Source of the DNA: Erysipelotrichaceae bacterium
GTDB taxonomy: Bacteria; Bacillota_I; Bacilli_A; RFN20; CAG-826
Assembly: GCA_012518455.1 (NCBI GenBank)
Contig: JAAYSA010000005.1
Coordinates: 1 to 52,921 of the forward strand
Length of the DNA: 52,921 bases
Direction: 5' to 3'
Shown: positions 3,934-34,795 of the stretch, piece after piece
Layout: every line of letters starts with the position of its first letter
Numbering within the stretch: the first letter of the stretch is position 1
Translations under genes and position numbers: made by a program
Notes under the pieces: generated by a model
Database searches by the model: none
The model's input: only the letters and a program-made list of their open reading frames with translations
Told to the model about the DNA's origin: nothing

Positions 3934-5052
3934 CTATTTATGCACCAAGACGATTTCGTCGTTACCTAAATTTTCTTCACGCTTTTCTGCAATTGTAATA
4001 TTTGGTGCAACAATTACATTATGAAGTTTAGCCCCACGCTTTACGGTAACGCCAGGCATAATCACACTATTTGTAATAAGACACTCTTCTTCAATTATCA
4101 CTTCATTACTTATTACACTATGATGAACCGTACCTAAAATAATTGCGCCTTGATTAACAATTGATTGCGTAACATGGCCTTCTCTTCCAACGTAATGAGG
4201 GACACTATGAGTGTCTTCACCATAAATCTTACTGCGCGAACGAATTGTTTCAAAATAAGGTTCATCAACCATTTCAATTAAATCCATATTTGCTTCCCAA
4301 AGAGACTTAATAGTTCCAACATCTTTCCAATATCCATCAAATTGATAAGCAAATACACGTCTTTTTTTAGCAAGCATGTTTGGAATAATATTTTTTCCAA
4401 AATCATGTTCGCTATTTGGATCAACACTATCGCTTAAAAGTTCTGCTCGAAGTGTTTTATATTTAAAAATATATATTCCCATGCTTGCTAAGGTTGATTT
4501 TGGTTTTTTAGGTTTTTCTTCAAATTCAATAATACGGTCATTATCATCAACGCTCATAATGCCAAAGCGACTTGCTTCTTCAAGCGTTACATTTAAGACG
4601 GAAATTGTTAAGTCAGCTTTCTTTTCAAGATGAACACTTAACATTTTTCGATAATCCATTTCATAAATATGATCACCTGAGAGAATTAGAACATGTTCAG
4701 GGTTTTGAGAATCTAGGAAGGCAATATTTTGAAAAATAGCGTCCGCTGTTCCAACAAACCAGTTACTTCCTTCTTCGGTTTGCTTGGGCGCAATAGCAAC
4801 TGCAGAAGAGCGAACACCGTTTAGTCCCCATTTTTCGCCGTTACCAATATAGCCTGCTAAATCAATACTTTCATACTGTGTTAAAACACCAACTGTATTG
4901 ATATTTGAGTTTGAACAATTTGACATTACATAGTCAATAATGCGATATTTCCCACCGAAAAATACAGCAGGTTTAGCATTCTTTTTTGTGAGCTCGTAGA
5001 GGCGTGTACCTTTACCTCCTGCTAAAATCATTGCAACAATTTGTTTACTCAT
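3934..5052 (-). CDS. glgC: Glucose-1-phosphate adenylyltransferase
   Basis: 372 aa. It has the ILAGGKGTRL nucleotide-binding signature, FFGGKYRIID, and a C-terminal hexapeptide-repeat region. A GGAAGGA RBS lies upstream. Confidence 0.93.
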   Translation of the reverse strand: MSKQIVAMILAGGKGTRLYELTKKNAKPAVFFGGKYRIIDYVMSNCSNSNINTVGVLTQYESIDLAGYIGNGEKWGLNGVRSSAVAIAPKQTEEGSNWFVGTADAIFQNIAFLDSQNPEHVLILSGDHIYEMDYRKMLSVHLEKKADLTISVLNVTLEEASRFGIMSVDDNDRIIEFEEKPKKPKSTLASMGIYIFKYKTLRAELLSDSVDPNSEHDFGKNIIPNMLAKKRRVFAYQFDGYWKDVGTIKSLWEANMDLIEMVDEPYFETIRSRSKIYGEDTHSVPHYVGREGHVTQSIVNQGAIILGTVHHSVISNEVIIEEECLITNSVIMPGVTVKRGAKLHNVIVAPNITIAEKREENLGNDEIVLVHK

Positions 5053-5070: not shown

Positions 5071-5937
5071 CTAAATTGGATTTTTTAATAAATAGACTAT
5101 TCCTAATTCTAATAAATCCATTTCTTGTTTAATTTGATAAAGGGTTTCTTTATCTAATTTTTCAAGAAGAATTAAGTGTTTTTCTTTAAAACGCGGAGCA
5201 ATTAAAAGGGCGTAATACGAAGGTGAACTAACTAGAGCGAATGGCGTTTTTAAACCTTTAGAAAATTCTTTTACTCCATTTAAAACTGTCTCATTAACTC
5301 TGTTAATATTGCGCATTTCATTGGTAAATAGTGCAAAATCGCCTTTTTTTACATGATCGAATTGAATAACTTTTTCACTTCTAAAATTGCGTGGCGTTGG
5401 GAATGTATCATTGCGAATAACAATGTATTCATTACTTTCTTCTTTTTTAAGAAATAGGGCAGTAACAAGTTTTTTATCTTCTAAATAAAACGAAAGTAAA
5501 TAAAAGATTTTATTTAAATATGAAATCTCGTATGTACGTTGGAGTGTGGCATTTTTTATATCAAAAAGTTCAAGAAAATGACGATAAATTTCAGAAATAA
5601 CAGCTTTTTTATTTTTCTCCTTACTAATATCATGCATAACGATATTTGGATTAAGAACTTTTCTTATTTCTTCTAGCATTATTCGCTGTTTGCTAATGTA
5701 GTAAAGAGCAAAGAAAACGATATATAAAGCTAAGCATAAAAGTGTAAAAGCCATAATTAATAGCCCCCTAGAAAGAGCATCATCTCTAGTGGTAATTAAG
5801 CCATAATAATTTAGACCCTTAAAAATAGCATATAAAAATACGCCTATTGCAACACCAATAAGTCCAAATAAATAAACTTTTATCATCGTACGTTGCCGCT
5901 TTTTTATTAGCGTCGACAATGCATTATGGATGTTCAT
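5071..5937 (-). CDS. Membrane protein of unknown function (two N-terminal TM helices plus a roughly 200-aa soluble domain)
   Basis: 288 aa. Hydrophobic segments are IKVYLFGLIGVAIGVFLYAIF and LLIMAFTLLCLALYIVFFALYYI. I recognise no catalytic motif. It has a GGAGAG RBS and sits 18 nt upstream of glgC, so it is probably the first gene of the glg transcript. Confidence 0.6.
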   Translation of the reverse strand: MNIHNALSTLIKKRQRTMIKVYLFGLIGVAIGVFLYAIFKGLNYYGLITTRDDALSRGLLIMAFTLLCLALYIVFFALYYISKQRIMLEEIRKVLNPNIVMHDISKEKNKKAVISEIYRHFLELFDIKNATLQRTYEISYLNKIFYLLSFYLEDKKLVTALFLKKEESNEYIVIRNDTFPTPRNFRSEKVIQFDHVKKGDFALFTNEMRNINRVNETVLNGVKEFSKGLKTPFALVSSPSYYALLIAPRFKEKHLILLEKLDKETLYQIKQEMDLLELGIVYLLKNPI

Positions 5938-5964: not shown

Positions 5965-5989
5965 AAAAAAAAGACCATAAAGGTCTTTT
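5965..5989 (-). terminator. Rho-independent terminator after the SMC-like gene
   Basis: The plus-strand stem is AAAAGACC (5969-5976), loop ATAAA, GGTCTTTT (5982-5989). On the minus-strand transcript the hairpin is followed by a U-run (plus-strand A-run at 5965-5972). Confidence 0.75.
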
Positions 5990-5993
5990 CTTT

Positions 5994-8900
5994 TTATTTT
6001 GTTGTAAGCTTATCTAATTCAGCGTATAAGTGAACGCTACTTGCCTTCCGTCCACGCAAGACAACGAGCGTTTCATCAACTAATTCAGATATATCTGCTA
6101 CTTTATCACTTGGAGCAGATAAGATTGCTTGTAAGTTAAATTTTCTAAGGAGACGAATTGATTCTTTAATTCTTCCGCTGTCCATTTTAGAGAACGCCTC
6201 ATCAAAGATAATAATTCGTGAAGTATTACCAAGTTCTCCGCCATCATTAACGCGATAGAGTTGAGCAAATGAGGCAAGAACTGCAATATAAAATGGAGTT
6301 TGTGTTTCGCCACCCGACTTCTTCTTAAGCATTTTACTTAGACGTTGAGTTTGTCCAGTCTTATCTTTAACTATTAAGTCAAAGTCAAGATAATTTCGGT
6401 AATCTGTAAAGCGTTCAACATTAGCAAGAACGGCAGCGTTTTGATCACCAGATTTACTACTTAAGACAATTTGAGCAAATAAATCTTTCATAACATCGTC
6501 ATATTTTTCAAAGAAGGCACTATCGTTATCGGTGACTTCTAGAAGAAGATCATCTTTAATCATGTCGTAATATTTACGGTAAACTGCACTTGGATTAACA
6601 GTGAAATAATAAGAGTCATTTCCAAATGTAGAAGCACTTAAGGCATCATTTAGTTCGATGATTTGATCTTCAACCGTTTCGATTGCGTTACGAAGCTTAC
6701 TAATAAAGTCATCTTTAAACTGTTTAACAGCTTTTTGATAAGCATCATGAATTTTAACTTCATATTCTGGTAGTTTAACTTCTTTTAAATCATTTAGTTC
6801 ATCATCATAGATGACATTATCGGTTGAGTTTGTATCATAGGTAAGACGATAATCAAGCGTATATTCTCTTCGTAATTTTACAAGTTGCGTAAAGACGTTA
6901 TTAACTAAGTATTGTGCATGACCAAACTTAACACGATATTCCGTATTAATATCAATCGGACTCATACCTTTTTCTTCTAATTCTTTAAAAGCAGGTTCTG
7001 CTACATCATTGACAAAGAAAACATCAAATTCTTGATTAATTTTTTCAAGCCTTTCTTTACATACTGCTTCTACTTCTGGAATGCGATCATTTAAAAGCGT
7101 ATTAATTTGGGTGTTTAATTTACCTCGCTCTTCAAATAGCGCATTCTTTTCTTCTTCTAGGGTTGCAGTATCTTCATCAATTAAATCAATTCGCTTTTGA
7201 AGACTTTCAATTTGACTTAAGTCATGCTTAGCTAACTCACTATCTAGATAAACTAGCGTTTCTTTAAGTGGATTAAGTTCCATTAAGCGTTCGATGAAAT
7301 TAGCAATATTATTAATTTCGTTTGTGTTAATGATTTCTAAATTATTAGCACGAGAAATTAACTCATATAATTTTTTGTAGTTATTAATTAAACGGGTTCG
7401 CTCTTCAATTTCAAGCCGTTTTTGGTTAATTTGTGCCTCTTCTACCGCTCTACCAATAAATGAGGGTGTATATAGACGAGGATTTAATTTACCAAAACTA
7501 AAGTTTCGATAAAGGTCACAATCGGCTGTAATTCCATTTCCAGAAGCTCTTGCTTCTTCAATCGTTGCACATTTTTGAAGTCGGCCAATTAAGAAGTTTG
7601 TATAAGCTTCTGCGCCAAGATGATCGGTAATAATTTCTTCTGCTAAAGAATTCTTATAGGCTTCAAAACGGCGCTCAATAATTCGTTCTTGGTCAACAAG
7701 GGTTGTCCCATAATAGTGATAGCGATCAAGTAAACCACGAAGAATGTTATAAGCTTCTAAATAATATTCTGGTTCAACAAATAAATTGAACTTTTGACTA
7801 TATAGGAAGCCTTCAATCGCATTTGTCCATTTTGGATTTTTAATATCGATTAAATCAGCAAAAAACATTACTTCAATTTTACGGTTATGACGCGAGCTTA
7901 GTTCATTTTGAAGTTCGTTTCGAATTTGAACTAGCGAGCGCTCATAGGCTTTCCCGCCGTGACGAAGGTCAATTTCTTGTTGCTTAGCATAAGCGTTTTC
8001 TTCTTCAATTTTATTAATTGTTCTAGCAAGTGAGATAAAAAGAGCACTAACTCTTTGTTTAAATAGTTGAAGAGCATCTCGCCAAACATTAAGTGCTTTT
8101 GAATCTAGCTTTGTTAGATCATTTAACCCGATATCTTTTAGTTTTTGTGATTCGCTAATTACTGTAAGAGCACTATTGTTTAAGGCTTCAATTTCACTTC
8201 GATCATCTCTTGAAAGAAGATCAAGATTAAATGTTTCAAGCATCTCGCTAATTTCCTTAGCAACAATACTAAAGCGAGTTATATATTGTTCAAGATCATT
8301 TTTAATACTTAAATTGGCGAATTCAAGTTCAGCAATTTTCTTTTTCGTTGCTTCTTTTTGCTCCATTAACTCATCAGTAATCTTATAGGTAGAGTCAGTT
8401 GCACTTTCTTGAATAAGACGCATTTTTCTGCGGCGAAGTTCAGCAATATTTACATCAACATCTGCTAAATCACTTTCAAGATTAACAAGACGCTTTTTAG
8501 CATTTTCAATTTGAGTTAAATAACTATCAAGGCGGTTTTTATCATTTTGATAAGTGGCTTTTTCAATAATATATTCAAAAAGCGCCATATTGCTCTTATT
8601 GTGTAAATATAGATCGTATGTGTCTTTAATTTCAGTTAAGCGTTCAACACGCTTTTTCATAACAAGAGCTTCATCTTCAAGTTTCTTATACTGGAGAATA
8701 TTTTCTTGCATTGGAATAATGTCAATATTTTGTTGTGGATCGCAGACATATTCAGTAATAAATGTCGTAATATCAGTAATTGGAGTAAAACTAACTGCTT
8801 TCTTTAAAAGAGAGAAATAGCGATCTTTTAATCCGCCTAATTGACGTTTAAGTGCATCTTGATATTGGCGATTACTATCAAAAAATGTATATTTATTTGG

Positions 8901-9377
8901 ATAATTTTCACTAAAGAACTGTGAAAGATCTTTGTACTCCATAGGTAAATCATCAACGATAAATTCGTTTTCTGGAATCTTATCGTTTAAAAGAAAGAAG
9001 CGATGATCATTAGTGCCGTCTTCATAAGAATCAAAAACAGCTCCTAATGTAAAGGAGACGTCATTTATATCATCATAAAATTCAAGGGCAAGATAGCTTG
9101 TAAAGCGACCGTTACGAAGATAGTGGAAACCGCCATCATCGGTATCACCAAGTTCACCGCGTAAATATCCTTTTAGAGTTCGATTACTTTTATCCATCGC
9201 TGCTTTATTAAAGAAGCGACCACTTGTATCACCCAAAAGGATAACTTGAAGTCCGTCAATTAAAGTCGATTTACCGCTCGCGTTAAGACCAGTTAAAAAG
9301 ACGATTGGTTCGATATTAATTGTTTCATTCCAAAAATAGTGCCAATTTATAATTTTAACTTTTCGTAAGAGTTTCAT
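5994..9377 (-). CDS. SMC-like ATPase, JetC/MksB-type (long coiled-coil ABC-type ATPase)
   Basis: 1127 aa. The N-terminal head is MKLLRKVKIINWHYFWNETI..FLTGLNASGKSTLIDGLQVILLGD (Walker A). About 800 aa of heptad-rich, charged sequence follows. The C-terminal head has KKKSGGETQTPFYIAVLASFAQLY (signature motif), IIIFDEAFSKMD (Walker B) and QAILSAPSDK. It has a 4-nt ATGA overlap with the preceding gene. Confidence 0.85.
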   Translation of the reverse strand: MKLLRKVKIINWHYFWNETINIEPIVFLTGLNASGKSTLIDGLQVILLGDTSGRFFNKAAMDKSNRTLKGYLRGELGDTDDGGFHYLRNGRFTSYLALEFYDDINDVSFTLGAVFDSYEDGTNDHRFFLLNDKIPENEFIVDDLPMEYKDLSQFFSENYPNKYTFFDSNRQYQDALKRQLGGLKDRYFSLLKKAVSFTPITDITTFITEYVCDPQQNIDIIPMQENILQYKKLEDEALVMKKRVERLTEIKDTYDLYLHNKSNMALFEYIIEKATYQNDKNRLDSYLTQIENAKKRLVNLESDLADVDVNIAELRRRKMRLIQESATDSTYKITDELMEQKEATKKKIAELEFANLSIKNDLEQYITRFSIVAKEISEMLETFNLDLLSRDDRSEIEALNNSALTVISESQKLKDIGLNDLTKLDSKALNVWRDALQLFKQRVSALFISLARTINKIEEENAYAKQQEIDLRHGGKAYERSLVQIRNELQNELSSRHNRKIEVMFFADLIDIKNPKWTNAIEGFLYSQKFNLFVEPEYYLEAYNILRGLLDRYHYYGTTLVDQERIIERRFEAYKNSLAEEIITDHLGAEAYTNFLIGRLQKCATIEEARASGNGITADCDLYRNFSFGKLNPRLYTPSFIGRAVEEAQINQKRLEIEERTRLINNYKKLYELISRANNLEIINTNEINNIANFIERLMELNPLKETLVYLDSELAKHDLSQIESLQKRIDLIDEDTATLEEEKNALFEERGKLNTQINTLLNDRIPEVEAVCKERLEKINQEFDVFFVNDVAEPAFKELEEKGMSPIDINTEYRVKFGHAQYLVNNVFTQLVKLRREYTLDYRLTYDTNSTDNVIYDDELNDLKEVKLPEYEVKIHDAYQKAVKQFKDDFISKLRNAIETVEDQIIELNDALSASTFGNDSYYFTVNPSAVYRKYYDMIKDDLLLEVTDNDSAFFEKYDDVMKDLFAQIVLSSKSGDQNAAVLANVERFTDYRNYLDFDLIVKDKTGQTQRLSKMLKKKSGGETQTPFYIAVLASFAQLYRVNDGGELGNTSRIIIFDEAFSKMDSGRIKESIRLLRKFNLQAILSAPSDKVADISELVDETLVVLRGRKASSVHLYAELDKLTTK

Positions 9378-10024
9378 TCTTCATCCTCCTCACTAATAGA
9401 GTCAGTAAGTTTGTCGCGTGCTGCTAATTCTTCTAACGCATTACTCATTGCAACAATTTTTTCTGAATCAACAGCATATAAAATCGAGGGTAGTAAATAG
9501 AAAGAAACATTTCCTTCATCATAACTACCACTTACTTTATCAATAACATTATGTTGAGCAAGTATTCTTAATGAGCGTCCAATAAGGCGACCATTAACTC
9601 TTTTCCCTGGCATTTGAATACCGCGATTATGCATTACCTTTAATACAAATGGCGTGGTTAGATATAAACTATCGCTACTTTGATTAGATTCTGTTCGTTC
9701 TGTTTCATAAATTAGGCGTAAGACAAAAAGAATTAATGATACTTCGCGGTCAAAACGAATACGGTTTTGACCATATTCATTAATTAAATTAAAAACGCCG
9801 CTGATAAGATCTTTTTCTACTGTCCAACCACTAAAAGAGAGATAGTCATTAATTAAATCATAATGTCGTTCAAGAAAACGAAAATCAGGATTAATTTTTA
9901 TCGTCTTTTCCCGGCGATCATAATAATCCCGTACACAAAAAGATGATAAAAGTAAGTTGTTAACAACGCGAGCAAATTCATCTTGATCTTGCCGCGATAA
10001 TTGTAAAATTTGTTCAGTTCCCAT
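9374..10024 (-). CDS. JetB/MksE-like (DUF4194-like) small subunit, putative KITE partner of the SMC-like ATPase
   Basis: 216 aa with an acidic C-terminal tail (SEEDEE). It is translationally coupled on both sides (TAATG at 10022-10026, ATGA at 9374-9377). Its size and middle position match jetB/mksE. The family assignment rests on context and general sequence character and is not a verified alignment. Confidence 0.55.
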   Translation of the reverse strand: MGTEQILQLSRQDQDEFARVVNNLLLSSFCVRDYYDRREKTIKINPDFRFLERHYDLINDYLSFSGWTVEKDLISGVFNLINEYGQNRIRFDREVSLILFVLRLIYETERTESNQSSDSLYLTTPFVLKVMHNRGIQMPGKRVNGRLIGRSLRILAQHNVIDKVSGSYDEGNVSFYLLPSILYAVDSEKIVAMSNALEELAARDKLTDSISEEDEE

Positions 10025-11445
10025 TAGGCTTCAAGTTCCTTTCGTTTAAAAAGTAAGTTTGGCAAGCTAAATCCATAAGAATGTACTTGTCCTTCTAATT
10101 TTTCAACCGTATAAAAACATTGTTCATCATTTGTTTTTAAAGTGGCTAAGATTAATAAAATAAAAGCATCGTAATCTGGAAGAGGAATTTCTTTAACATT
10201 AATTTCGCTATCGTCGCCAAAAGACATTTCCATAAAATCCCACACACGAGCATCATTAAAAATATTGCGGGTTTCATCTAAGAAACCTTGCATTAGCATT
10301 TCGCTAGCAGCATCAAAATCAACGATTCTAAGAGGCTCTCCCGCTTCGCGGTAGCGTCGCACAATTGGTAGAGTAACCGAATCAGGCGTAACATAGCCTT
10401 GCGTTGACATCACAACTGAATCTTGCATCGCATTTAAAATCGGCCGAATTGATTTATCAGTAATGATATATTCAGCATAAATTTTAAAAATATTATCAAG
10501 ATGACCTTTAATTGTCTTGTCAGCATGATTTAAATAAAGAATCTTACTAGCAGTTGCTTTAGTGTAATCTTGATGTTTTTCATCAATTGAAGCAATCATA
10601 CTTGAAAGAGTTTCAAACATGTCACAGATATAGTTAATTTGATAAATAATATCTTGTTCAGCATGTTTTGCATCTTTTTTTCTACTCCAAAGTAGCGATT
10701 GATTAACTAGTTGTTCACGAGCATCCTCATCATAGAGCCAACCTTGAAGAATTTGTATAATTGGTCGTTTAAACTTAGCAACACTATCAAATGTTTTAAG
10801 TGGATGATAGTATTTATCGCTTATTCTTGTTTTATAAATATCAAAATAATCACTTAAAATCTTGTTTGTTGAAAATATTCGTCCTAGACGATTTTGGAAA
10901 ATACGAATGCTATGACCTAAAGTAACTAATTCCGTTCGAAGCTTTTTCGTATTTTCAAAAGCGCGAAGGAGTGATGTATACATAAATTCATCACGAACTT
11001 CGTCTTCCATTTTTAATTCTGTATAAGTTGAATGAACAAGTGAAACATATTCAGTTTCATCATCACGAACTAATTCATTAAGTAAAGTTAAAAAAGAAAT
11101 CGCGTAACTTGGAAGAGCAATATATTCTTCTAAAGTATCAGGGTCGATTTCAATATCAATCCAGCCACATTCTTCAAGGCGACGGACAACAAAGGCGGCT
11201 TTAGTAGGAAGAGTTTCCGAAGTAATTAAACTTGTTTCTTCTTCACCTTCACTTTCAAAGTCAAGGTGCATAATTAGATCACGATATTTTTCTCTTAGTG
11301 TTCTAACATAGTCAGCTTTTTTAATTGCCATTTCATCACTTTGAAGAGCATCAAATAAAACAAGCAATGCCTCCGAATAAACTTCACGGTTTTTGCTTGC
11401 TAGTATTGAAAAGAAATTCTCTGGTATAACTGTAAATAAACTCAT
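10024..11445 (-). CDS. JetA/MksF-like putative kleisin subunit
   Basis: 473 aa and the first gene of the three-gene unit. Its size and position match jetA/mksF. I can name no catalytic motif. The assignment is by operon architecture only. Confidence 0.45.
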   Translation of the reverse strand: MSLFTVIPENFFSILASKNREVYSEALLVLFDALQSDEMAIKKADYVRTLREKYRDLIMHLDFESEGEEETSLITSETLPTKAAFVVRRLEECGWIDIEIDPDTLEEYIALPSYAISFLTLLNELVRDDETEYVSLVHSTYTELKMEDEVRDEFMYTSLLRAFENTKKLRTELVTLGHSIRIFQNRLGRIFSTNKILSDYFDIYKTRISDKYYHPLKTFDSVAKFKRPIIQILQGWLYDEDAREQLVNQSLLWSRKKDAKHAEQDIIYQINYICDMFETLSSMIASIDEKHQDYTKATASKILYLNHADKTIKGHLDNIFKIYAEYIITDKSIRPILNAMQDSVVMSTQGYVTPDSVTLPIVRRYREAGEPLRIVDFDAASEMLMQGFLDETRNIFNDARVWDFMEMSFGDDSEINVKEIPLPDYDAFILLILATLKTNDEQCFYTVEKLEGQVHSYGFSLPNLLFKRKELEA

Positions 11446-11572
11446 ATAAGGTCCAAACTAAGTTTTCTATGTTTATATTATCATATAAACAATCTAATTT
11501 ATAGTGAAGTTTCAAGTTTTTTATTGTTTTTTTGCTACATTTTTGTGTTAGATTTAAGAAAGTGAGGTAATA

Positions 11573-12016
11573 ATGATTATAAAACCTGCAAAAGGAAAAA
11601 TTATCAAAATTTATAGTATCTTTTTTCTTATAGCACTAGTTGTATTTTATTTTCTACCCGGCTTCCCTCTTTGGCCACCACGAGTTCCTCATTATATTAT
11701 TCTTGGTGTTTGGGTTTTAGTCAGCGCGGGTTCTCTTTTTTATGCTTTAAAATTTAATTATTATGAAGTAGATAAGTCACGCATCGTGCACTTCAAAGGA
11801 AGAAAACGTCTTATTTACGATTTTAATTCAATTCTTTTTATTGACGAAACTTGGTCAAGAAAGAAAAAGACACTCCTTTTTTATACTGATAAAGGTCATG
11901 CCCGCTATTTAACACTAGATAAAAACGGTGAACTACTTGAATTAACCTTAAAACGATGTAAAAACCTAATTAGCCAAGAAGAATATCAAATTCGCTTCCC
12001 AAATACAAAAATGTAA
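11573..12016 (+). CDS. Small membrane protein with a C-terminal PH-like (YdbS/bPH-type) domain, unknown function
   Basis: 147 aa with a GTGAGGT RBS. Two N-terminal TM helices are followed by a soluble domain of about 80 aa. The family call is tentative. Confidence 0.5.
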   Translation: MIIKPAKGKIIKIYSIFFLIALVVFYFLPGFPLWPPRVPHYIILGVWVLVSAGSLFYALKFNYYEVDKSRIVHFKGRKRLIYDFNSILFIDETWSRKKKTLLFYTDKGHARYLTLDKNGELLELTLKRCKNLISQEEYQIRFPNTKM

Positions 12017-12286: not shown

Positions 12287-12290
12287 GAAA

Positions 12291-12320
12291 AAATCCGCGA
12301 AACTCGCGGATTTTATTTTT
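12291..12320. terminator. Bidirectional rho-independent terminator between convergent rpmB and the 224-aa membrane gene
   Basis: A perfect 10-bp stem, AAATCCGCGA (12291-12300), loop AAC, TCGCGGATTT (12304-12313). It is flanked by an A-run on one side and a T-run on the other. Confidence 0.85.
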
Positions 12321-12329: not shown

Positions 12330-13004
12330 TTAAATAAAGAAATATGCTATAAATCCAACCAATAATAAAAGCATATTAATAAAGATAATTGCCCACTCCG
12401 TATATGCAAGAACAAAAAACTTTGGCCTTAAAATAATAATTGTTCCATCTTGTTGTTCAATCTTATCCATAAATGGCCATCTTTTTAAGGCAGGATTGAT
12501 AGCTAGAAATGCAACAATAGCTGCTAAAATCCAACATATAATCGGTAAAATTAGCGGAGCATCTAAGTAGATTGTTTTAAAAATATAAATGCCTAAGAAA
12601 ACAGCATTAACCAAAGTAAACGTAATTAAACAAGCAACAATTGCAATATGTCCCTTCATAGAACGAAGTTTAACAAAGAAGATACTTGCTCCAAGAAGAG
12701 CAGTTAGTGTCCAAGAAACAATAAGGATAATGCCAAAATAGTGGGCTAAATCAACAAAGGCATAAAAACCAAAAAGAACAAATCCTAAGGCTTGCATCAT
12801 TTGCGAAAAATATAGATATATAACAAATCGTTGTTCAACCCCTTGGCTTAATTCATAAGGAAATTCATTTAAAAACGAATAGTTTCTTCCTTGTTTTGTT
12901 CGATAATTAGAAAGTGAAAAAACAATTGTTAATAGGAAAAAGATAACAGCCATTGCAAAACCTAGCGAAGTATAAACCATATTATTAGCTAGAACATTAA
13001 TCAT
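12330..13004 (-). CDS. Polytopic membrane protein, unknown function
   Basis: 224 aa with about 6 hydrophobic helices. It overlaps the rpe stop by 8 nt, so it is co-transcribed. It occupies the position held by thiN/yloS in B. subtilis. Confidence 0.6.
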   Translation of the reverse strand: MINVLANNMVYTSLGFAMAVIFFLLTIVFSLSNYRTKQGRNYSFLNEFPYELSQGVEQRFVIYLYFSQMMQALGFVLFGFYAFVDLAHYFGIILIVSWTLTALLGASIFFVKLRSMKGHIAIVACLITFTLVNAVFLGIYIFKTIYLDAPLILPIICWILAAIVAFLAINPALKRWPFMDKIEQQDGTIIILRPKFFVLAYTEWAIIFINMLLLLVGFIAYFFI

Positions 13005-13659
13005 GCATTAAACCCTCAACTCGATCTTTTATTTTTGAACTACCAAATAAATAAGAGCCTGCTACTAGGATATCAACACCTTTTTCTTTACATAGCTTCG
13101 CAGTTTTATTATTGATGCCGCCGTCAACTTCAATTAAAGTGTCAAGTTTATAGCGGTCAATGTATTTACGAAGTTTTTCAATTTTGTCTAAACTAGCAGG
13201 GATAAATTTTTGACCGCCGAAACCTGGTTCAACTGACATTACTAAAACAAGATCAAGCATCTTTAAAAAAGGGAAAACTACCTCTACTCTTGTTTTAGGT
13301 TTAATACTCATCCCAACTTTTCCACCAGCTTTTCTAATCGCGCGTATTACTTTATTTCTTTCTTTATCATTTGAAAGAGCCTCATAATGAAAAGTTACAA
13401 TGTCTGCGCCGGCTTTAACAAATTTAGGCCCATAAGTTAAAGGATCACTAATCATAATGTGAACATCATAAATCATATTATAGTGACCTTTTAATGATTC
13501 TAAAACAGGGAGACCAAAAGAAATATTTGGTACAAAGTGACCATCCATTACATCAAAATGAAGATAGGTAGCACCAGCTTCATAAACTTTTTCAATTTCA
13601 TGATTTAAGAACCGAAAGTCAGCACTTAAAATCGAGGGAGCGACATGAACTCTACGCAT
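12997..13659 (-). CDS. rpe: Ribulose-phosphate 3-epimerase
   Basis: 220 aa with APSILSADF, HFDVMDGHFVPN, MSVEPGFGGQKF and VDGGIN motifs. Confidence 0.93.
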   Translation of the reverse strand: MRRVHVAPSILSADFRFLNHEIEKVYEAGATYLHFDVMDGHFVPNISFGLPVLESLKGHYNMIYDVHIMISDPLTYGPKFVKAGADIVTFHYEALSNDKERNKVIRAIRKAGGKVGMSIKPKTRVEVVFPFLKMLDLVLVMSVEPGFGGQKFIPASLDKIEKLRKYIDRYKLDTLIEVDGGINNKTAKLCKEKGVDILVAGSYLFGSSKIKDRVEGLMHD

Positions 13660-13669
13660 ATGGGCCTCC

Positions 13670-14521
13670 TTATTTATTAGTTTCTTCTATTAGTTTAACA
13701 TAGTTTTGATAAATCATCGGTGGAATCTTACCTTCTTCTAAGGCTTTTTTAACAGCACAGCCCGTTTCGCTAAGATGAAGACAATTATTAAAATAGCATT
13801 TTCCAAAGTAGCGTTTTATTAATGGATAGTTTTGGGCAATTGCTTCTTTATCCATTGGCAGTTCAAAACTAGAAAAGCCAGGCGTATCAGCAAGATATCC
13901 GTTTTCAATTTTAAGAAGAATTACTTCTCTAGTTGTATGTCGGCCGCGGCCTAATTTTTCAGATATATCGCCTATTTCACGTTCAAATTCGGGGAATAGA
14001 GCATTAATTAGACTTGATTTTCCAACGCCAGTTTGACCCATCAAAGCACTTACTTTATTAGAAAAAGCTGCTTTTAATTTATCAAGACCAACACCTGATT
14101 TAATTGACGTAATAAAATAATCGCATGCATAACCATCTAAGTGGGCCATTATTTCTTTTATTTTTTCTTCTTCTTTTGGATCAATTTTATCTGCTTTAGT
14201 AATAACAACAAGTGGCTTAACTTCAGCAAAATAACAATAGGTAAGAAACTTTTCAACTAAAAAAAGTGAAAAAGGTGGTTTATCAACACTCATAACAATT
14301 AGAACTTGATCTATGTTTGCTACTGGAGGTCTAAGTAAAAAGTTTTTCCTATCTTCTAGACTAATGATTTGTTTAGTGTCTTTATCAAGTGATACTTTAT
14401 CTCCTACGACAATATTTAGATTATGTAGATGAAGCGTTCCCTTAATAACAGAAGTAAAAGTTTCATTATTTGCTTCAATTACATAGTGCCTTCTTGTTTT
14501 AGCTATTACCAACCCCTTCAT
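13670..14521 (-). CDS. rsgA: Ribosome small-subunit-dependent GTPase A
   Basis: It has the circularly permuted GTPase order (TKADK before GQTGVGKSSLINAL) and a C-terminal Zn-finger, CYFNNCLHLSETGCAV. I prefer the internal ATG at 14521 (MKGLVIAK..), which has a GGAGGA RBS and a TAATG overlap with the kinase stop, over the track start at 14557. Confidence 0.9.
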   Translation of the reverse strand: MKGLVIAKTRRHYVIEANNETFTSVIKGTLHLHNLNIVVGDKVSLDKDTKQIISLEDRKNFLLRPPVANIDQVLIVMSVDKPPFSLFLVEKFLTYCYFAEVKPLVVITKADKIDPKEEEKIKEIMAHLDGYACDYFITSIKSGVGLDKLKAAFSNKVSALMGQTGVGKSSLINALFPEFEREIGDISEKLGRGRHTTREVILLKIENGYLADTPGFSSFELPMDKEAIAQNYPLIKRYFGKCYFNNCLHLSETGCAVKKALEEGKIPPMIYQNYVKLIEETNK

Positions 14522-15411
14522 TAATCCTCCGTCGCAAAACCAAACCAGCGTACCCAAATTGAATAATGTGGTTTTAAATATTTTGGATTTTCTTTTAAAT
14601 ATACAATTTGATTATACATTTCTTTAACATTTTTAAAACGCTTTTTAGGTTTTTTTTTAGTTCCTTTTAAAATAAGTTTTTCTAGTTTACGTGGAATTGA
14701 AGATAAATACTTTTTGGGACTTGGAAAAGGTTCATTAATTTGTTTTATTGCTATATCAATATTTGATTGACCATCAAAAGGTACACGACCAGTAATAAGT
14801 TGAAATAGTGTGATCGTAAGAGCATAAACGTCACTTCTTACTGTTGCTTCTTCACCCTTACAAATTTCAGGAGCTAAGTATTGGGCGCTTCCAACAATTT
14901 CGGCTGAATCAACTTTTTTTGGTGTAATTGTTGTCATTGTTGCAATACCAAAATCACCAAGTTTAATCGTTCCATCAGGAAGAATATAAATATTACTTGG
15001 CTTAATATCACGGTGAATAACGCCGGCATCATGAGTTGCAATTACAGCTTGACATAATTGATCCATAATGTCGATTGCCTCAAGATAAGTAAATTTAGTT
15101 CTTGTTTCAAGTTCACTGTCGAGCGTCTTACCTTTAATTAATTCATTAATCATAAATGGTAGACCTTCGTAATTACCAACATTAAGAACAGCAACAATAT
15201 TAGGATGAGATAGTGTCGCACTAGCTCTAGCTTCAATTTCAAAACGCTCGACATTTTGCGAATCTTTAGCAGTTTCTGGTTTTAAAAACTTAATCGCAAC
15301 CATTTTTTTAGTATAAATATCAAAAGCTTGGTAAACAATACCCATGCCACCTTCACCAAGAAGATCTTCAATTCGATAACGTTTATCAATAATTGTGCCA
15401 ATTTTAATCAT
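14521..15411 (-). CDS. prkC: Hanks-type Ser/Thr protein kinase, kinase domain only (no TM or PASTA region)
   Basis: GEGGMGIVYQA...AIK, HRDIKPSN, DFG and APE motifs. The preferred start is the ATG at 15411 (MIKIGTII..), which overlaps the phosphatase stop by 8 nt. It lies at the prkC position of the ylo-type operon. Confidence 0.88.
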   Translation of the reverse strand: MIKIGTIIDKRYRIEDLLGEGGMGIVYQAFDIYTKKMVAIKFLKPETAKDSQNVERFEIEARASATLSHPNIVAVLNVGNYEGLPFMINELIKGKTLDSELETRTKFTYLEAIDIMDQLCQAVIATHDAGVIHRDIKPSNIYILPDGTIKLGDFGIATMTTITPKKVDSAEIVGSAQYLAPEICKGEEATVRSDVYALTITLFQLITGRVPFDGQSNIDIAIKQINEPFPSPKKYLSSIPRKLEKLILKGTKKKPKKRFKNVKEMYNQIVYLKENPKYLKPHYSIWVRWFGFATED

Positions 15412-16153
15412 TGTCACTCTCCCAGAGGGCGACGGCGATATTATCAGTTCCACCTTTATTGTTGGCTAAGGCGACTAACATTTCTGTTTTTTGTTCTACA
15501 TTATCAGTTGTAGATAAAATTGCTTGAATTTCTTTATTGTTGACAAGATGATAGAGCCCATCACTACAAAGTAGTATTGTTTCACCGTTGTAATTATGAA
15601 TTTTTATATCTAAATTTACACTCGGTGTATTACCAAGAGCATTAATAATTACGTGACGGAGTGGATGGCGGAGAGCTTCTTCTTTACTTATTTGTTCGGT
15701 TCTAACCAAATATTCAACATAAGTATGATCTTGAGTTAATTGAATTAGTTCATCATCTTTAAGCATCAAAGCTCTAGAGTCACCGATATTACTTACGACC
15801 ATTTTATTACGGCGTATAAGAGCGGCTACTAGAGTAGTTCCCATTTTTTCTTCACCTTCAGTTTGAAGAGATTCACCAAATATAATTTTATTTGCATGAC
15901 GGATTTGCTTAGTTAAGAAACTTTTTGCAGTATTTATACTACGAAATGTTTCAATTCTGCTAAAGGCATCGCTTAATGTATCAACAGCGATTTTACTAGC
16001 AATTTCACCTCTTTTATAGCCGCCGATGCCATCGGCAACAACTAAAAGAACATCACCAGCAGCATTAAGAGTAATTTTGGCACAGTCTTCGTTATGAGGG
16101 CGGACGAGTCCACGGTCACTACGAGCACAAAATGTTCCTTCAAATCGATTCAT
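15404..16153 (-). CDS. prpC: PP2C-family Ser/Thr phosphatase
   Basis: RPHNEDC, VADGIGG and GGTDNIAV metal-binding motifs. The preferred start is the ATG at 16153 (MNRFEG..), 2 nt after the rlmN stop. Confidence 0.9.
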   Translation of the reverse strand: MNRFEGTFCARSDRGLVRPHNEDCAKITLNAAGDVLLVVADGIGGYKRGEIASKIAVDTLSDAFSRIETFRSINTAKSFLTKQIRHANKIIFGESLQTEGEEKMGTTLVAALIRRNKMVVSNIGDSRALMLKDDELIQLTQDHTYVEYLVRTEQISKEEALRHPLRHVIINALGNTPSVNLDIKIHNYNGETILLCSDGLYHLVNNKEIQAILSTTDNVEQKTEMLVALANNKGGTDNIAVALWESDND

Positions 16154-16155
16154 AT

Positions 16156-17187
16156 TTATTTCTTTTTGGCTCGAAGTTGACCGCAAGCAGCGTCAATATC
16201 TAAGCCAAATTCCTTTCTTGTATTTGTGTAGATGCCTCTTTTAAATAGATAATCTTTAAAGGCTTTGATCCGGTCATCTGAAGATCTTTTAAAGCCTAGT
16301 TCTTCAACCTCGTTATAGGGAATAAGATTTACAAAAGCAAGCGTACCTTCAATTAAAGTAGCAAGATCTTCAGCATCACCTAGCGAATCATTTACATCTT
16401 TTAATAGGATATATTCAAATGTTGTTCTTTTATTAGTTTCTTTTTCAAAATAGCGAACTGCTTCCATTACTTCTTCTAATGGATATGCTCGATTAATTGG
16501 CATTAAACTATTTCGTTTTAGATTCGTTGGAGCATGAAGACTAATCGCAAGTTTTGCTTGTAAGCCAATGTGTGCAAATTCTTTGATTTTACTTGGAATT
16601 CCACATGTTGATACCGTTAAGTGACGAGCACCTATTTCAAGAGCACGATGATGATTCACTGTTTTAAGAAAGTTAACAACATTAGTAAAATTATCAAATG
16701 GTTCGCCTGTTCCCATAACAACAACATGACTAATTGGCGGTTCTCCTTCTTTTGCTAAAATTTCATTTAGTAAAAGAACTTGACCAACCATTTCTCCACT
16801 TGTAAGATCACGCTTCTTTTTAAATAGGCCAGAAGCACAAAATTTACAGCCCATGTTACAACCAACTTGACTAGAAACACAAGCCACATTTCCATACCTA
16901 TAGCGCATTAATACTGTTTCTACATGGCTTTTATCTTCAAATTCAACAAGAAGTTTTAAGGTTTTATCTTCGCTTAATGATTTTGTAGCAACTATAGGTA
17001 ACTTAAAATTAATTAGGCTAGCTAATTTTTCTTGTGATGATTTTGAAATATCACTCATTTTATAAAAATCAGTGACATTCTTTTTATAAATCCATGTAAA
17101 AAGCTGTTGAGCACGATACTTTTTTTCGCCGATGCTTGGCATAAACTCTTCAAGTTGTTCAAAGGTAAAATCGTAAAAATTACGCAT
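16156..17187 (-). CDS. rlmN: 23S rRNA/tRNA adenine-C2 methyltransferase, radical SAM
   Basis: 343 aa with the CNMGCKFCASG radical-SAM cluster, GTGEP and a C-terminal CGQL motif. It follows the rsmB-like gene, as in Firmicutes. Confidence 0.93.
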   Translation of the reverse strand: MRNFYDFTFEQLEEFMPSIGEKKYRAQQLFTWIYKKNVTDFYKMSDISKSSQEKLASLINFKLPIVATKSLSEDKTLKLLVEFEDKSHVETVLMRYRYGNVACVSSQVGCNMGCKFCASGLFKKKRDLTSGEMVGQVLLLNEILAKEGEPPISHVVVMGTGEPFDNFTNVVNFLKTVNHHRALEIGARHLTVSTCGIPSKIKEFAHIGLQAKLAISLHAPTNLKRNSLMPINRAYPLEEVMEAVRYFEKETNKRTTFEYILLKDVNDSLGDAEDLATLIEGTLAFVNLIPYNEVEELGFKRSSDDRIKAFKDYLFKRGIYTNTRKEFGLDIDAACGQLRAKKK

Positions 17188-18463
17188 TATTATCCTTTTC
17201 TAGGCGGACGAAAACAGCAGTAAATGTAAGTGCATTATCTATTTCATAAGGCATTGTTTTCATAGTTAGAGCAAGGGCAAATTGAGGATGTTCATTTGCA
17301 AATGTTTCAGCTTGCTCACTAGTTTCAATAGCGGTACTTGTTGTTACATTAAAAAGTAAGAATCCCTGCGTGGCAACAAGAGGAGTTAAACTAGCTAATC
17401 TTTCTTTAACAAACGCAGCTTTTTCACTGTGGATATCAATTTTCCAATTAACAAAAAAGTCAGGTGAAAGTCTAATAGCGTTGTAATTACTTGAAGGTGC
17501 TACATAGTAGACAACATCGAATTTACCTAATGTTTCAAGGTCTTCAATTTTGTTTAAGTAAAGAACTTCAACATTATCTAACTTAAATTTAAGTTTAATT
17601 GCATTACAAATAGCAAATCTTCTTCTACTTGTCGTAATAACACTTATATGGGTGTCAGTTTCACATTGAATTGCTAAATCAAGAAATAGAGAACTTTTTT
17701 CATCTTCAAAACAAACAACTGAATGAGGATTTAGACTTTGGATATAGTCGCTAATTTTGGCCTCATAAAGGGAAAGTGAATAAACATTCATCTCTTTATA
17801 TGGAGTTGTTTGTTTTATACTTTTTTTACTCGTATAAACATAAGAATTTTTTAAAACACCTGGTTTAAAGTCTTTATTAGTTTCAAAAAATTCTTCAACT
17901 TTAACAAGTTTAGGATTAATTCTTCCGCAGATGGTAAATGGTTTTCTGGTCGCATCAAGAACTTTAATTGTTTGTTTTTTACCTAATTCTTCAATCCAAA
18001 ATTCAATTAGCAGTAAGGGATGATTATAACGAAGCGACAAATTAAGTGGTGACAAATAGTGGCTTTTTGAAGGATAAAGCGCGTTTTTGTCGCTTTCAAG
18101 TAGAATATTACTTTCAATAATTAGTTTAGCCTCTTCTTCATTTAATGAAATTAAATACTCTTCAAATTCATCTTTATTAATTTCAACACTTTTTAAGAAA
18201 AAGCTATTTGCAAAGTATATTAAAAGTGCCGCTAAAGTTTTTGTGCTAAAACTAACTTCAGGTAAACGGACACTTAAAAAATACATAAAAAGCTCACGAC
18301 GAAGCAATGATTGTCTTAAAAGAAATTTTAATTTTCTTTCATCTTCCTTTTGGATTTCTTTTGAACGCCTGATAACTGCTATCGAATTACTATATGTTTC
18401 TTCACCCGATAAGATTTTTTCAAGGTATTCAATAATTATTTTTACTTGTTTCATATTTGCCAC
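17180..18463 (-). CDS. RsmB/Sun-like protein with degenerate methyltransferase motifs (probable pseudoenzyme)
   Basis: 427 aa at the rsmB position. FDVVYYVAPSSNYNAIRLSPDF aligns to the RsmB D-A-P-C-S motif and FNVTTST to T-C-S, with both Cys replaced. There is no AAPGGK SAM loop; EDEKSS stands in its place. Confidence 0.6.
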   Translation of the reverse strand: MANMKQVKIIIEYLEKILSGEETYSNSIAVIRRSKEIQKEDERKLKFLLRQSLLRRELFMYFLSVRLPEVSFSTKTLAALLIYFANSFFLKSVEINKDEFEEYLISLNEEEAKLIIESNILLESDKNALYPSKSHYLSPLNLSLRYNHPLLLIEFWIEELGKKQTIKVLDATRKPFTICGRINPKLVKVEEFFETNKDFKPGVLKNSYVYTSKKSIKQTTPYKEMNVYSLSLYEAKISDYIQSLNPHSVVCFEDEKSSLFLDLAIQCETDTHISVITTSRRRFAICNAIKLKFKLDNVEVLYLNKIEDLETLGKFDVVYYVAPSSNYNAIRLSPDFFVNWKIDIHSEKAAFVKERLASLTPLVATQGFLLFNVTTSTAIETSEQAETFANEHPQFALALTMKTMPYEIDNALTFTAVFVRLEKDNNA

Positions 18464-18507
18464 CTTAGTGTTATTTTAACACTACCCGAATTTAATTAAA
18501 ATAGCAA

Positions 18508-18541
18508 AACAAAAAAAGCGGTTATTCTTTGAATACCGCTT
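18508..18541 (-). terminator. Rho-independent terminator after the 174/178-aa gene
   Basis: The minus-strand transcript reads AAGCGGTATTC AAA GAATAACCGCTT followed by TTTTTGTTTT. The stem has one bulge. Confidence 0.7.
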
Positions 18542-18560
18542 ATCTTGTTTTAAGGTTTAT

Positions 18561-19085
18561 TTAGTCGTGTTTATCGCAGTTATTTTGTTTATCGTCTTTA
18601 CTTTTTTCTAGGTCATGACCTGCAAAAACATCACCCATGAAGACTTCATCATAGCCTCTATGATCATCTTCACTTTCTTGTTCTTCTTCATAATCTTCAT
18701 TTTCTTCGTTGTATTCATCATCTTCATGAATATGATATGAAGTAATAAAACGAGGGTATTCAGCATTTATTGAGCCAAATGAATGACCGTGTTCAAAGTA
18801 AACGAACTGAATATGAGTATTAATTGCCACTTGCTCTGTAGCACTTAAAAGAATATCTGCTAAATCTTCTTCTATTTTTTTCGTTAGACGGGTATCACAT
18901 TCTACATAAATAACAGCTTGCCAGCTTGTTTGTTCAACACCGCGATGGAAAATATATTCAGCAGGGGCGATAAAAATAACTTCTTCATTTTCTAACTCTA
19001 AAACGCGAATAATTTCATCAGTTTCTTGTCTTGCAATTCTTCCTACAATGTAGGGATCTAGGCCATAGGTACGAATAATTATCAT
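18561..19085 (-). CDS. Hypothetical protein with a small alpha/beta N-terminal domain (possibly DUF1904/tautomerase-like) and a highly acidic tail
   Basis: The track ORF starts at 19097. The ATG at 19085 (MIIIRTYGL..) has a GGAG RBS 6 nt upstream. The C-terminus is EDDEYNEENEDYEEEQESEDD. The domain guess is weak. Confidence 0.5.
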   Translation of the reverse strand: MIIIRTYGLDPYIVGRIARQETDEIIRVLELENEEVIFIAPAEYIFHRGVEQTSWQAVIYVECDTRLTKKIEEDLADILLSATEQVAINTHIQFVYFEHGHSFGSINAEYPRFITSYHIHEDDEYNEENEDYEEEQESEDDHRGYDEVFMGDVFAGHDLEKSKDDKQNNCDKHD

Positions 19086-19107
19086 AATTTTCTCCATTTA
19101 GATTATA

Positions 19108-28106: not shown

Positions 28107-28157
28107 AAAAGCCCTCTTTTATGCAAAACGAAGGTTTATAAAGAAAAGAGGGCTTTT
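28107..28157. terminator. Long-stem hairpin between convergent genes (bidirectional terminator)
   Basis: AAAAGCCCTCTTTT (28107-28120) pairs with AAAAGAGGGCTTTT (28144-28157) across a 23-nt loop, and there are T/A runs on both sides. Confidence 0.65.
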
Positions 28158-29272: not shown

Positions 29273-29289
29273 ATTTTTATAATACCATA

Positions 29290-32340: not shown

Positions 32341-32344
32341 CTTC

Positions 32345-34690: not shown

Positions 34691-34795
34691 TAAAAGTCCT
34701 TTCACTCATATTATAAAAGCATTTTTAACAAATTTAAAAGCATTTTTTTATATATTATTAATAACTAATTTATTTTATAAATTAGTTATAAATTT

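What the first reader, a model, noticed from the sequence alone, without database searches (positions are those of the whole stretch)
5994..11445. JetABC/MksFEB-type SMC module with no JetD/MksG nuclease, insulated by a terminator and GC-richer than its surroundings
Three minus-strand genes of 473, 216 and 1127 aa are translationally coupled (TAATG overlap at 10022-10026, ATGA at 9374-9377). The 1127-aa protein has an unmistakable SMC/MukB-type head: INWHYFWNE...GLNASGKST at the N-terminus, then SGGETQ and IIIFDEAFSKMD at the C-terminus, with about 800 aa of coiled coil between. Gene order and sizes match jetA-jetB-jetC of Wadjet (mksF-mksE-mksB). However, the fourth Wadjet gene (JetD/MksG, Toprim-type nuclease of about 400 aa) is absent. 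A strong terminator follows immediately at 5965-5989, and the upstream neighbour is divergent. Spot counts on single 60-nt lines inside the module give 23-32 G+C per 60 nt (lines 6301, 7501, 8401, 9601, 10321). Sampled lines of glgA, the 288-aa gene, rlmN and priA give 17-21 per 60 nt, which hints at foreign origin. The module therefore has three possible readings: a nuclease-less condensin (MksBEF-like), a Wadjet variant whose effector is encoded elsewhere, or a plasmid/phage-restricting variant with a different effector logic.
Basis: partly seen in the sequence, partly recalled or inferred. Interest (0 to 1): 0.72.

Follow-up and report, generated by a model that had tools for sequence, protein, structure and literature searches.

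The report
Nuclease-less Wadjet motor kept as chromosomal gene set
Three genes encoding the DNA-looping motor of the Wadjet anti-plasmid system, without its DNA-cutting subunit, have been inherited vertically at one chromosomal spot across a large group of uncultured small-genome gut Bacilli, so this is probably a defence motor converted to a nuclease-free, condensin-like role, a known kind of event seen here in a new lineage.

Summary
The genes at 10024-11445, 9374-10024 and 5994-9377 (minus strand) are full-length type I JetA, JetB and JetC (Pfam JetA 4e-89; PADLOC JetB1 2e-61, JetC1 1109 bits). They are translationally coupled and followed by a hairpin terminator. No JetD was found in the window, in 10 kb beyond each end, or next to the module in 76 related genomes and 12 metagenome contigs. 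All four Clostridia outgroups (40% JetC identity) have JetD directly after jetC.

The "GC-richer, foreign" reading fails. The module averages 20.0 G+C per 60 nt, against 19.4-21.1 for glgA, glgC, rlmN and priA.

The module sits at one junction (rpe-membrane gene-147-aa gene | jetABC | glgCDA) in species whose JetC is 47-99% identical. JetC distances track those of neighbouring housekeeping genes (Mantel r=0.78). dN/dS is 0.01-0.05 and the ATPase motifs are invariant. One sister clade has a clean empty site (45 contigs), so the module is ancient but dispensable.

Best reading: a nuclease-free, MksBEF-like SMC complex descended from type I Wadjet. This is a new member of a known kind. I could not test whether JetD or Smc-ScpAB exists elsewhere in these genomes.

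The parts
10024..11445 (-). jetA (mksF-like kleisin), 473 aa
   Evidence: Pfam PF18982 JetA at E 4.4e-89, covering profile positions 2-434 of 434. PADLOC JetA1 at 4.6e-125. dN/dS is 0.007-0.05 in unsaturated pairs.
9374..10024 (-). jetB (mksE-like KITE subunit), 216 aa. Its start overlaps the jetA stop (TAATG).
   Evidence: Pfam DUF4194 at 1.6e-12. PADLOC JetB1 at 1.7e-61, full length. Junction sequence.
5994..9377 (-). jetC (mksB-like SMC ATPase), 1127 aa. Its start overlaps the jetB stop (ATGA).
   Evidence: PADLOC JetC1 at E 0 and 1109 bits over residues 1-1121. Pfam AAA_29 and SbcC_Walker_B. Walker A, signature and Walker B motifs are invariant in 73 of 73 orthologues. A profile search reaches E. 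coli JetC structures 8as8/9qxt at 1e-16.
5969..5989 (-). Intrinsic-terminator-like hairpin (8-bp stem, 3 G-C pairs, T-run) after the jetC stop.
   Evidence: It is specific to genomes that carry the extra 288-aa gene, and is not conserved across relatives.
11446..11572 (-). Intergenic region upstream of jetA, shared with the divergent 147-aa gene. It holds a promoter-like site at 11508-11480 (TTCACT-17-TATGAT).
   Evidence: This is a consensus match only. The number of promoter-like sites in the region is not above the shuffled expectation.
11573..12016 (+). Left junction anchor: a 147-aa membrane protein gene, divergent from jetA. It is context, not a Jet partner.
   Evidence: It is present next to jetA in jet+ relatives and directly next to glgC in jet- relatives. 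No Pfam or PADLOC family matched.
3934..5052 (-). Right junction anchor: glgC, first gene of glgC-glgD-glgA. It is context, not part of the module.
   Evidence: In 50 of 68 related loci it follows jetC within 14-210 bp. Pfam NTP_transferase is listed for this gene.

Best explanation
The three genes encode a complete, active JetABC motor of type I Wadjet descent: a JetC SMC ATPase dimer, a JetA kleisin and a JetB KITE dimer. The lineage lost the JetD Toprim nuclease in an ancestor of a large clade of uncultured, small-genome Bacilli. One member is Coprobacillus sp. CAG:826; to my knowledge this corresponds to GTDB order RFN20, family CAG-826. The module has been inherited vertically at one chromosomal junction ever since.

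By homology, the complex should load on DNA and extrude loops using ATP. Without JetD, extrusion cannot end in cleavage. The most likely retained function is therefore nuclease-free DNA organisation of the MksBEF type (chromosome folding, segregation or replisome positioning) rather than plasmid cutting.

Shown here: family identity, intact motifs, strong purifying selection on all three genes, co-divergence with the host, local absence of JetD, and dispensability in one sister clade.

Inferred, not shown: loop extrusion, action on the chromosome, and genome-wide absence of JetD.
For: Identity: Pfam and PADLOC full-length matches to JetA, JetB and JetC.

JetD:
- JetD1 sits directly after jetC in all four Clostridia outgroups.
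- It is absent from the window, from 76 ingroup loci with up to 10 kb of flank on each side, and from 0.89 Mb of metagenome loci.
- It is absent from 10 kb beyond each window end in the same species.
- No conserved substitute gene exists on either side.

Vertical inheritance:
- The same synteny (rlmN-PP2C-pknB-rsgA-rpe-membrane gene-p147 | jetABC | glgCDA) holds in relatives with 47-99% JetC identity.
- JetC distances correlate with GlgC/RlmN/Rpe distances at r=0.78, Mantel 0 of 999.
- Between-clade JetC distances of 0.73, 0.79 and 0.63 mirror host distances of 0.84, 0.88 and 0.69.
- dS of the jet genes equals dS of glgC and glgA.

Function retained: dN/dS is 0.01-0.05. All 73 full-length JetC are intact, with invariant Walker A, signature and Walker B motifs.

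Context: neighbours and variable inserts at the junction are housekeeping or metabolic genes, not a defence island.

Precedent: P. aeruginosa MksBEF is thought to derive from JetABCD by JetD loss and organises the chromosome (PMC10586767). The M. smegmatis three-gene MksB operon has a chromosomal role (PMC11329512).
Against: Whole genomes could not be scanned, so a JetD or other effector encoded far from the module is not excluded.

No direct evidence links this complex to the chromosome.

A large sister clade deleted the module cleanly (45 empty sites). It is therefore not essential, which fits an accessory function as well as a non-essential condensin.

A Phe (F955) lies 4 residues from the position aligned to E. 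coli JetC F919, the JetD-docking residue. It stays invariant in JetD-less and JetD-containing sequences alike. The interface shows no obvious decay, although the residue mapping is unreliable.
Confidence: 0.55

Rival explanations
1. It is still a Wadjet defence system whose effector is encoded elsewhere in the genome. The effector would be JetD or a non-homologous nuclease. JetABC would sense small circular DNA by loop extrusion and recruit the unlinked nuclease.
For: All JetABC parts are intact and under strong selection. The JetB N-terminus and an invariant Phe near the region aligned to the E. coli JetD-docking residue are retained. Only about 73 kb of the window's genome, and about 23 kb of each relative, could be inspected.
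Against: In all four JetD-containing outgroups jetD is the next gene after jetC. No JetD remnant was found in any of 88 jet+ loci. Position-fixed vertical inheritance with housekeeping-like rates, outside any defence island, is unlike the usual turnover of defence systems; the comparison with defence-system turnover rests on my own knowledge. I know of no reported Wadjet with an unlinked JetD (my knowledge; literature searches found none).
Confidence: 0.22
2. JetABC alone controls extrachromosomal DNA without cutting it. It might compact, silence or mis-segregate small circular DNA, in the manner of Smc5/6 silencing of episomes.
For: The motor descends from a plasmid-sensing system. It is dispensable in a sister clade, as expected for an accessory trait. 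SMC-based, non-nucleolytic restriction exists in eukaryotes (review PMC10586767).
Against: In characterised systems JetD/MksG is needed for the plasmid phenotype: an mksG null equals an mksB null (PMC10123090). No experimental precedent in bacteria was found. The conservation pattern resembles that of a housekeeping gene.
Confidence: 0.15
3. It is a recently acquired foreign island or a decaying remnant of a Wadjet operon. This covers the first reader's 'foreign origin' hint.
For: The module GC lies at the 92nd percentile of 5.45-kb sliding windows across the whole window. JetD is missing.
Against: GC and GC3 match the adjacent genes. The percentile is driven by low-GC islands elsewhere in the window. 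dS equals that of the neighbours and dN/dS is 0.01-0.05. There are no frameshifts or internal stops in 73 orthologues. The module co-diverges with the host over about 50% protein divergence.
Confidence: 0.02

Closest known systems
Type I Wadjet (JetABCD; also called MksBEFG or EptABCD), for example the E. coli GF4-3 JET nuclease and the Firmicutes JetABCD found here in L069, L071, L072 and L074
   Same: Gene order is jetA-jetB-jetC with translational coupling. There are full-length HMM matches to the JetA1, JetB1 and JetC1 subfamilies. JetC is 40-41% identical to the Clostridia systems that carry JetD.
   Different: There is no jetD in or near the operon in any member of the clade. The module is chromosomally fixed and vertically inherited rather than patchily distributed.
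MksBEF of Pseudomonas aeruginosa and the MksB-MksEF operon of Mycolicibacterium smegmatis (nuclease-free Mks condensins)
   Same: A three-gene kleisin-KITE-SMC module without MksG/JetD. The P. aeruginosa complex is proposed to have arisen from JetABCD by JetD loss (PMC10586767). A chromosomal role has been shown for both (PMC10586767, PMC11329512).
   Different: The phylum differs (Bacillota), and the origin appears to be independent, from Firmicutes-type JetABC1. The in vivo function here is untested. Whether it coexists with Smc-ScpAB is unknown here.
MukBEF of Enterobacteria
   Same: The same architecture and gene order (mukF-mukE-mukB). It is a chromosomal condensin thought to descend from a Wadjet-like ancestor (PMC10586767).
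   Different: Only the N-terminal head shows weak similarity to MukB (E 1e-5). The kleisin and KITE subunits match the JetA and DUF4194 families, not MukF and MukE. JetC is 1127 aa; MukB is about 1480 aa (the MukB length is from my own knowledge).

Membership tests
Wadjet type I (JetABCD) | JetA kleisin (Pfam PF18982; PADLOC JetA1) | tested here: met
   E 4.4e-89, full profile length. PADLOC 4.6e-125.
Wadjet type I (JetABCD) | JetB KITE subunit (DUF4194) | tested here: met
   Pfam 1.6e-12, above the gathering score. PADLOC JetB1 1.7e-61.
Wadjet type I (JetABCD) | JetC SMC-like ATPase with Walker A, signature and Walker B motifs and a long coiled coil | tested here: met
   PADLOC JetC1 1109 bits. 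The motifs are invariant in 73 orthologues.
Wadjet type I (JetABCD) | JetD Toprim/TopoVI-A-like nuclease encoded in the operon | tested here: not met
   The JetD HMM and tblastn give no hit in the window or in 76 + 12 jet+ loci. The four outgroups score 739-773 bits with the same HMM. Pfam lists for 10 kb beyond the window ends show no JetD_C or DUF3322.
Wadjet type I (JetABCD) | Restriction or cleavage of small circular plasmids | not testable with these tools
   This needs transformation or cleavage assays.
MksBEF-type nuclease-free condensin | Three-gene kleisin-KITE-SMC operon with no MksG/JetD partner | tested here: met
   Met locally. Genome-wide absence of JetD could not be tested.
MksBEF-type nuclease-free condensin | Acts on the chromosome (organisation, segregation or replisome positioning) | not testable with these tools
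   Only indirect support: housekeeping-like rates, fixed position and dN/dS of 0.01-0.05.
MksBEF-type nuclease-free condensin | Usually coexists with Smc-ScpAB (PMC11329512) | not tested
   No Smc, ScpA or ScpB in the roughly 73 kb inspected.
Smc-ScpAB | SMC_N head above threshold, plus SMC hinge domain and ScpA/ScpB partners | tested here: not met
   SMC_N scores 16.4 bits against a cut-off of 40. There is no SMC_hinge hit. The partner proteins belong to the JetA and DUF4194 families.
MukBEF | MukB, MukF and MukE family membership | tested here: not met
   No MukB, MukF or MukE Pfam hits. Only a weak head match to MukB structures, E 1.3e-5.

The most novel reading that the evidence does not exclude
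In this clade of reduced-genome, probably wall-less Bacilli, the JetD-less JetABC may have become the main chromosome-folding motor. It would have partly or wholly taken over from Smc-ScpAB. That would be a second, independent MukBEF-like takeover by a Wadjet-derived complex, this time in Bacillota. The jet- sister clade would serve as a natural control.
Probability: 0.08. Interest if true: 0.8.

Novelty: new member of a known kind. Interest (0 to 1): 0.42.

Why it matters
SMC researchers have proposed that chromosomal condensins of the MukBEF and MksBEF type arose from Wadjet-like defence motors by loss of the nuclease (PMC10586767). Well-resolved natural examples are few.

This lineage offers one. 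Close JetD-containing relatives are available as an outgroup. Dozens of diverged orthologues are under strong purifying selection. A sister clade has deleted the module cleanly.

That combination makes the question of what changes when a plasmid-cutting SMC becomes nuclease-free testable, by comparative genomics and by reconstitution.

It also shows that defence-system finders, which in my understanding require JetD to call a Wadjet system, would miss such modules.

Tried and rejected
- **Solved-structure sequence searches.** JetA gave no hit and JetB only noise. JetC alone matched only a P. aeruginosa JetC head, weakly. A 28-sequence profile was needed to reach E. coli JetC.
- **Mapping the E. 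coli JetD-docking residue JetC F919** (bioRxiv 10.1101/2023.11.03.565488) onto this family, to ask whether the interface has decayed. The profile alignment places it in a loop 4 residues from an invariant Phe (F955). The mapping is too uncertain to use.
- **JetB N-terminus.** It is conserved both in JetD-less sequences and in the JetD-containing outgroups, so it is not informative.
- **A conserved alternative effector next to the module.**
  - The 288-aa downstream gene is present in only 17 of 68 loci.
  - The 147-aa upstream gene is also present in jet- genomes.
  - A 356-aa DUF5677 gene is confined to one subclade.
  - All three were rejected as partners.
- **Defence-island reading.** The inserts at the junction are metabolic genes.
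- **Smc-ScpAB or JetD elsewhere in the genome.** Walking 10 kb past each window end found neither. The supplement of PMC10868615 holds no smc/scpAB data. Literature searches found no report on this lineage's condensins.
- **Structure prediction.** Not run. The HMM evidence for family identity is already decisive, and a deep alignment would have needed an expensive database search.
Full report
**1. Observation**

The window carries three minus-strand ORFs at 10024-11445 (473 aa), 9374-10024 (216 aa) and 5994-9377 (1127 aa). The junctions are as described. The jetA stop and jetB start form TAATG, and the jetB stop and jetC start form ATGA, preceded by a GAGGAGG Shine-Dalgarno sequence. After the jetC stop lies an 8-bp hairpin (AAAAGACC/GGTCTTTT) followed by a T-run. 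The upstream neighbour at 11573-12016 is divergent.

Profile HMMs settle the family identity:
- The 473-aa protein matches Pfam JetA over the whole profile (E 4.4e-89) and PADLOC JetA1 (4.6e-125).
- The 216-aa protein matches DUF4194 (1.6e-12) and PADLOC JetB1 (1.7e-61).
- The 1127-aa protein matches PADLOC JetC1 over residues 1-1121 (1109 bits). It also matches Pfam AAA_29 and SbcC_Walker_B.
- It is not an Smc: SMC_N scores 16.4 bits against a cut-off of 40, and there is no hinge family hit. It is not a MukB/F/E set either.

**2. The GC claim fails**

- The module is 33.3% GC. The left flank is 31.7% and the right flank 32.8%.
- Per-gene GC is 0.330-0.338 and GC3 is 0.194-0.217. Both lie within one standard deviation of the 45 window genes (0.317 ± 0.032 and 0.191 ± 0.034).
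- Mean G+C per 60-nt line is 20.0 in the module, against 20.4 (glgA), 21.1 (glgC), 20.0 (rlmN) and 19.4 (priA).
- The module only looks high against the whole window because low-GC stretches lie elsewhere, at 28-35 kb and 41-44 kb.

**3. JetD is absent locally, but present in the nearest outgroup**

A JetC-anchored scan of species-representative genomes returned 80 loci.

Four are Clostridia with 40-41% JetC identity and no shared synteny. In all four, a 413-422-aa gene follows jetC directly. It is JetD1 (PADLOC about 1e-123; Pfam JetD_C).

An HMM built from these four JetD proteins, and tblastn, found nothing in any of the following:
- the six-frame translation of the window and of the other 76 loci (best E 0.6);
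- 0.89 Mb of metagenome loci.

The Pfam lists for 10 kb beyond each window end in the same species also show no JetD family.

**4. The module is vertically inherited at a fixed site**

The other 76 loci come from uncultured Bacilli MAGs. Their record titles include 'Erysipelotrichales', 'Tenericutes', 'Mollicutes', Candidatus Onthovivens and Coprobacillus sp. CAG:826. To my knowledge this lineage corresponds to GTDB order RFN20, family CAG-826.

They share the order rlmN-PP2C-pknB-rsgA-rpe-membrane gene-(divergent 147-aa gene)-jetA-jetB-jetC-glgC-glgD-glgA, with JetC 47-99% identical to the window's. In 50 of 68 loci glgC follows jetC after 14-210 bp. The 288-aa gene seen in the window (5071-5937) is an insert present in only 17. 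The terminator 'insulation' is therefore local to genomes with that insert.

Evidence for co-divergence with the host:
- Pairwise JetC distances correlate with those of GlgC, RlmN and Rpe (r = 0.78; Mantel 0 of 999 permutations). Genuine housekeeping pairs correlate about as well (GlgC versus RlmN, 0.74).
- Mean p-distances are 0.44 for JetC, 0.44 for JetA and 0.40 for JetB. They are 0.35-0.47 for the neighbours.

Evidence for retained function:
- All 73 full-length JetC are uninterrupted. GxNxSGKST, SGGETQ and FDEAFSKMD are invariant.
- In pairs with unsaturated dS (0.1-1.0), dN/dS of jetA, jetB and jetC is 0.007-0.05. This is as low as or lower than glgC and glgA.
- The dS values of the jet genes equal those of the flanking genes.

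The three genes are functional, old residents of these chromosomes.

**5. The module is not universal**

A scan of metagenome contigs anchored on GlgC is blind to jet. Among its 80 loci, 12 have jetABC upstream of glgC. Of the 63 without it, 45 have a clean empty site: the 147-aa or membrane gene lies within 700 bp of glgC, in otherwise the same synteny.

On a neighbour-joining tree of concatenated GlgC+GlgD+GlgA (108 taxa), presence and absence are strongly clustered. Only 3 parsimony changes are needed for 69 jet+ and 33 jet- taxa. The tree shows three jet+ groups (27, 11 and about 31 taxa), one large jet- group and a small non-syntenic jet- group.

JetC distances between the three jet+ groups are 0.73, 0.79 and 0.63. 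They follow the host distances of 0.84, 0.88 and 0.69. The common ancestor therefore already carried jetABC, already without jetD, at this site. The jet- clade lost it later. The module is long-lived but dispensable.

**6. No alternative partner and no defence island**

- The 147-aa upstream gene is kept in jet- genomes, so it is not a Jet partner.
- A subclade has a 356-aa DUF5677 gene between it and jetA.
- Other inserts at this junction are HAD hydrolase, MFS transporter, GDPD, FolD, dCMP deaminase and DUF3137 genes. None matches a PADLOC family except the deaminase, which matches the PADLOC dCTPase model.
- The rest of the window is housekeeping: glycogen genes, rpe, rsgA, pknB, rlmN, priA, gmk, enolase and others.

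**7. Mechanism**

By homology with characterised JetABC, the expected assembly is as follows. JetC dimerises at the hinge. JetA bridges the heads and dimerises through its N-terminus. JetB dimers bind JetA. ATP hydrolysis drives DNA loop extrusion (architecture from my knowledge of the field, with reviews PMC10586767 and PMC10512200).

In JetABCD, stalled motors present bent DNA to a JetD dimer docked on the JetC head (bioRxiv 10.1101/2023.11.03.565488). Here that last step has no enzyme. I therefore consider a nuclease-free, MksBEF-like DNA-organising role the most likely (confidence about 0.55).

Rivals:
- A remote effector, about 0.22.
- Nuclease-independent plasmid control, about 0.15.
- Recent acquisition or decay, refuted.

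An attempt to see whether the JetD-docking site has decayed was inconclusive.

**8. Limits**

I could not scan whole genomes. I therefore cannot say whether JetD or Smc-ScpAB is encoded elsewhere. This is the single most informative missing result and it is a routine computation (see next steps).

**9. Verdict**

The finding is real and correctly identified at the family level. Its 'foreign, GC-rich' element is wrong.

The module is an ancient, position-fixed, strongly constrained JetD-less JetABC in a whole clade of small-genome Bacilli.

It fails membership of Wadjet in the strict sense because it has no JetD. It fits the known category of nuclease-free Mks-type complexes. It is a new member of a known kind, of moderate interest (0.42). 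Its value is as a natural case of defence-to-housekeeping conversion of an SMC motor.

Noticed in passing
window 28157-34705: A low-GC stretch (genes at 25.6-27.0% GC, against a gene mean of 31.7%). It holds a DUF5677 protein (371 aa), a UvrD-type helicase (1016 aa) and a PD-(D/E)XK nuclease protein (786 aa). The last two form an AddAB/RexAB-like pair that, to my knowledge, is shorter than usual. The composition suggests a different history from the rest of the window.
   Followed up: no
window 40658-43773: A second low-GC stretch (24-27% GC). It holds a Pol-beta-type nucleotidyltransferase protein (396 aa), a weakly MatE-like membrane protein (445 aa) and a 174-aa ORF with no family.
   Followed up: no
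L006 6753-7823 (also L010, L011, L012, L068, L081, L082, L084, L085): In one jet+ subclade a 355-357-aa DUF5677 gene sits between the 147-aa gene and jetA, divergent from jetA. The window's own DUF5677 gene (28157-29272) is only distantly similar (33% identity over 60 aa). Its function is unknown, and it is not a PADLOC family.
   Followed up: partly
window 5071-5937: The 288-aa membrane protein gene between jetC and glgC is an insert found in only 17 of 68 related loci. The counterpart in L009 (13421-14335) matches DUF3137. The window copy has no family hit.
   Followed up: partly
window 11573-12016: The 147-aa predicted membrane protein has no family hit. It is conserved, always on the opposite strand, at the same junction in both jet+ and jet- relatives. 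A diverged copy in L017 weakly matches DUF6585.
   Followed up: partly
window 12330-21300: The gene order priA-...-rsmB-rlmN-PP2C phosphatase-Ser/Thr kinase-rsgA-rpe matches the priA...rpe block of Bacillus subtilis as I recall it. It is conserved across all relatives examined.
   Followed up: no
window 52075-52921 and L161 5783-9850: Just past the right end of the window, the same species encodes two adjacent Endonuclease_1 (PF04231) proteins of 526 and 811 aa, the larger with Big_2/Big_3 domains. They are probably secreted or surface nucleases. The truncated ORF at the window end is one of them.
   Followed up: no
window 12290-12314: A perfect 11-bp-stem hairpin (AAAATCCGCGA...TCGCGGATTTT) is flanked by T-runs on both strands. 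It lies between the convergent 147-aa and 224-aa genes and is probably a bidirectional terminator.
   Followed up: no
L139 7911-9775; L048 4968-7796; L131 5371-7422: The rpe-to-glgC junction holds different small cargo in a few relatives. These are FolD plus a dCMP-deaminase-like gene (which matches the PADLOC dCTPase model), HAD-MFS-GDPD, and a 683-aa weakly DUF6541-like membrane protein. The site therefore tolerates insertions.
   Followed up: partly
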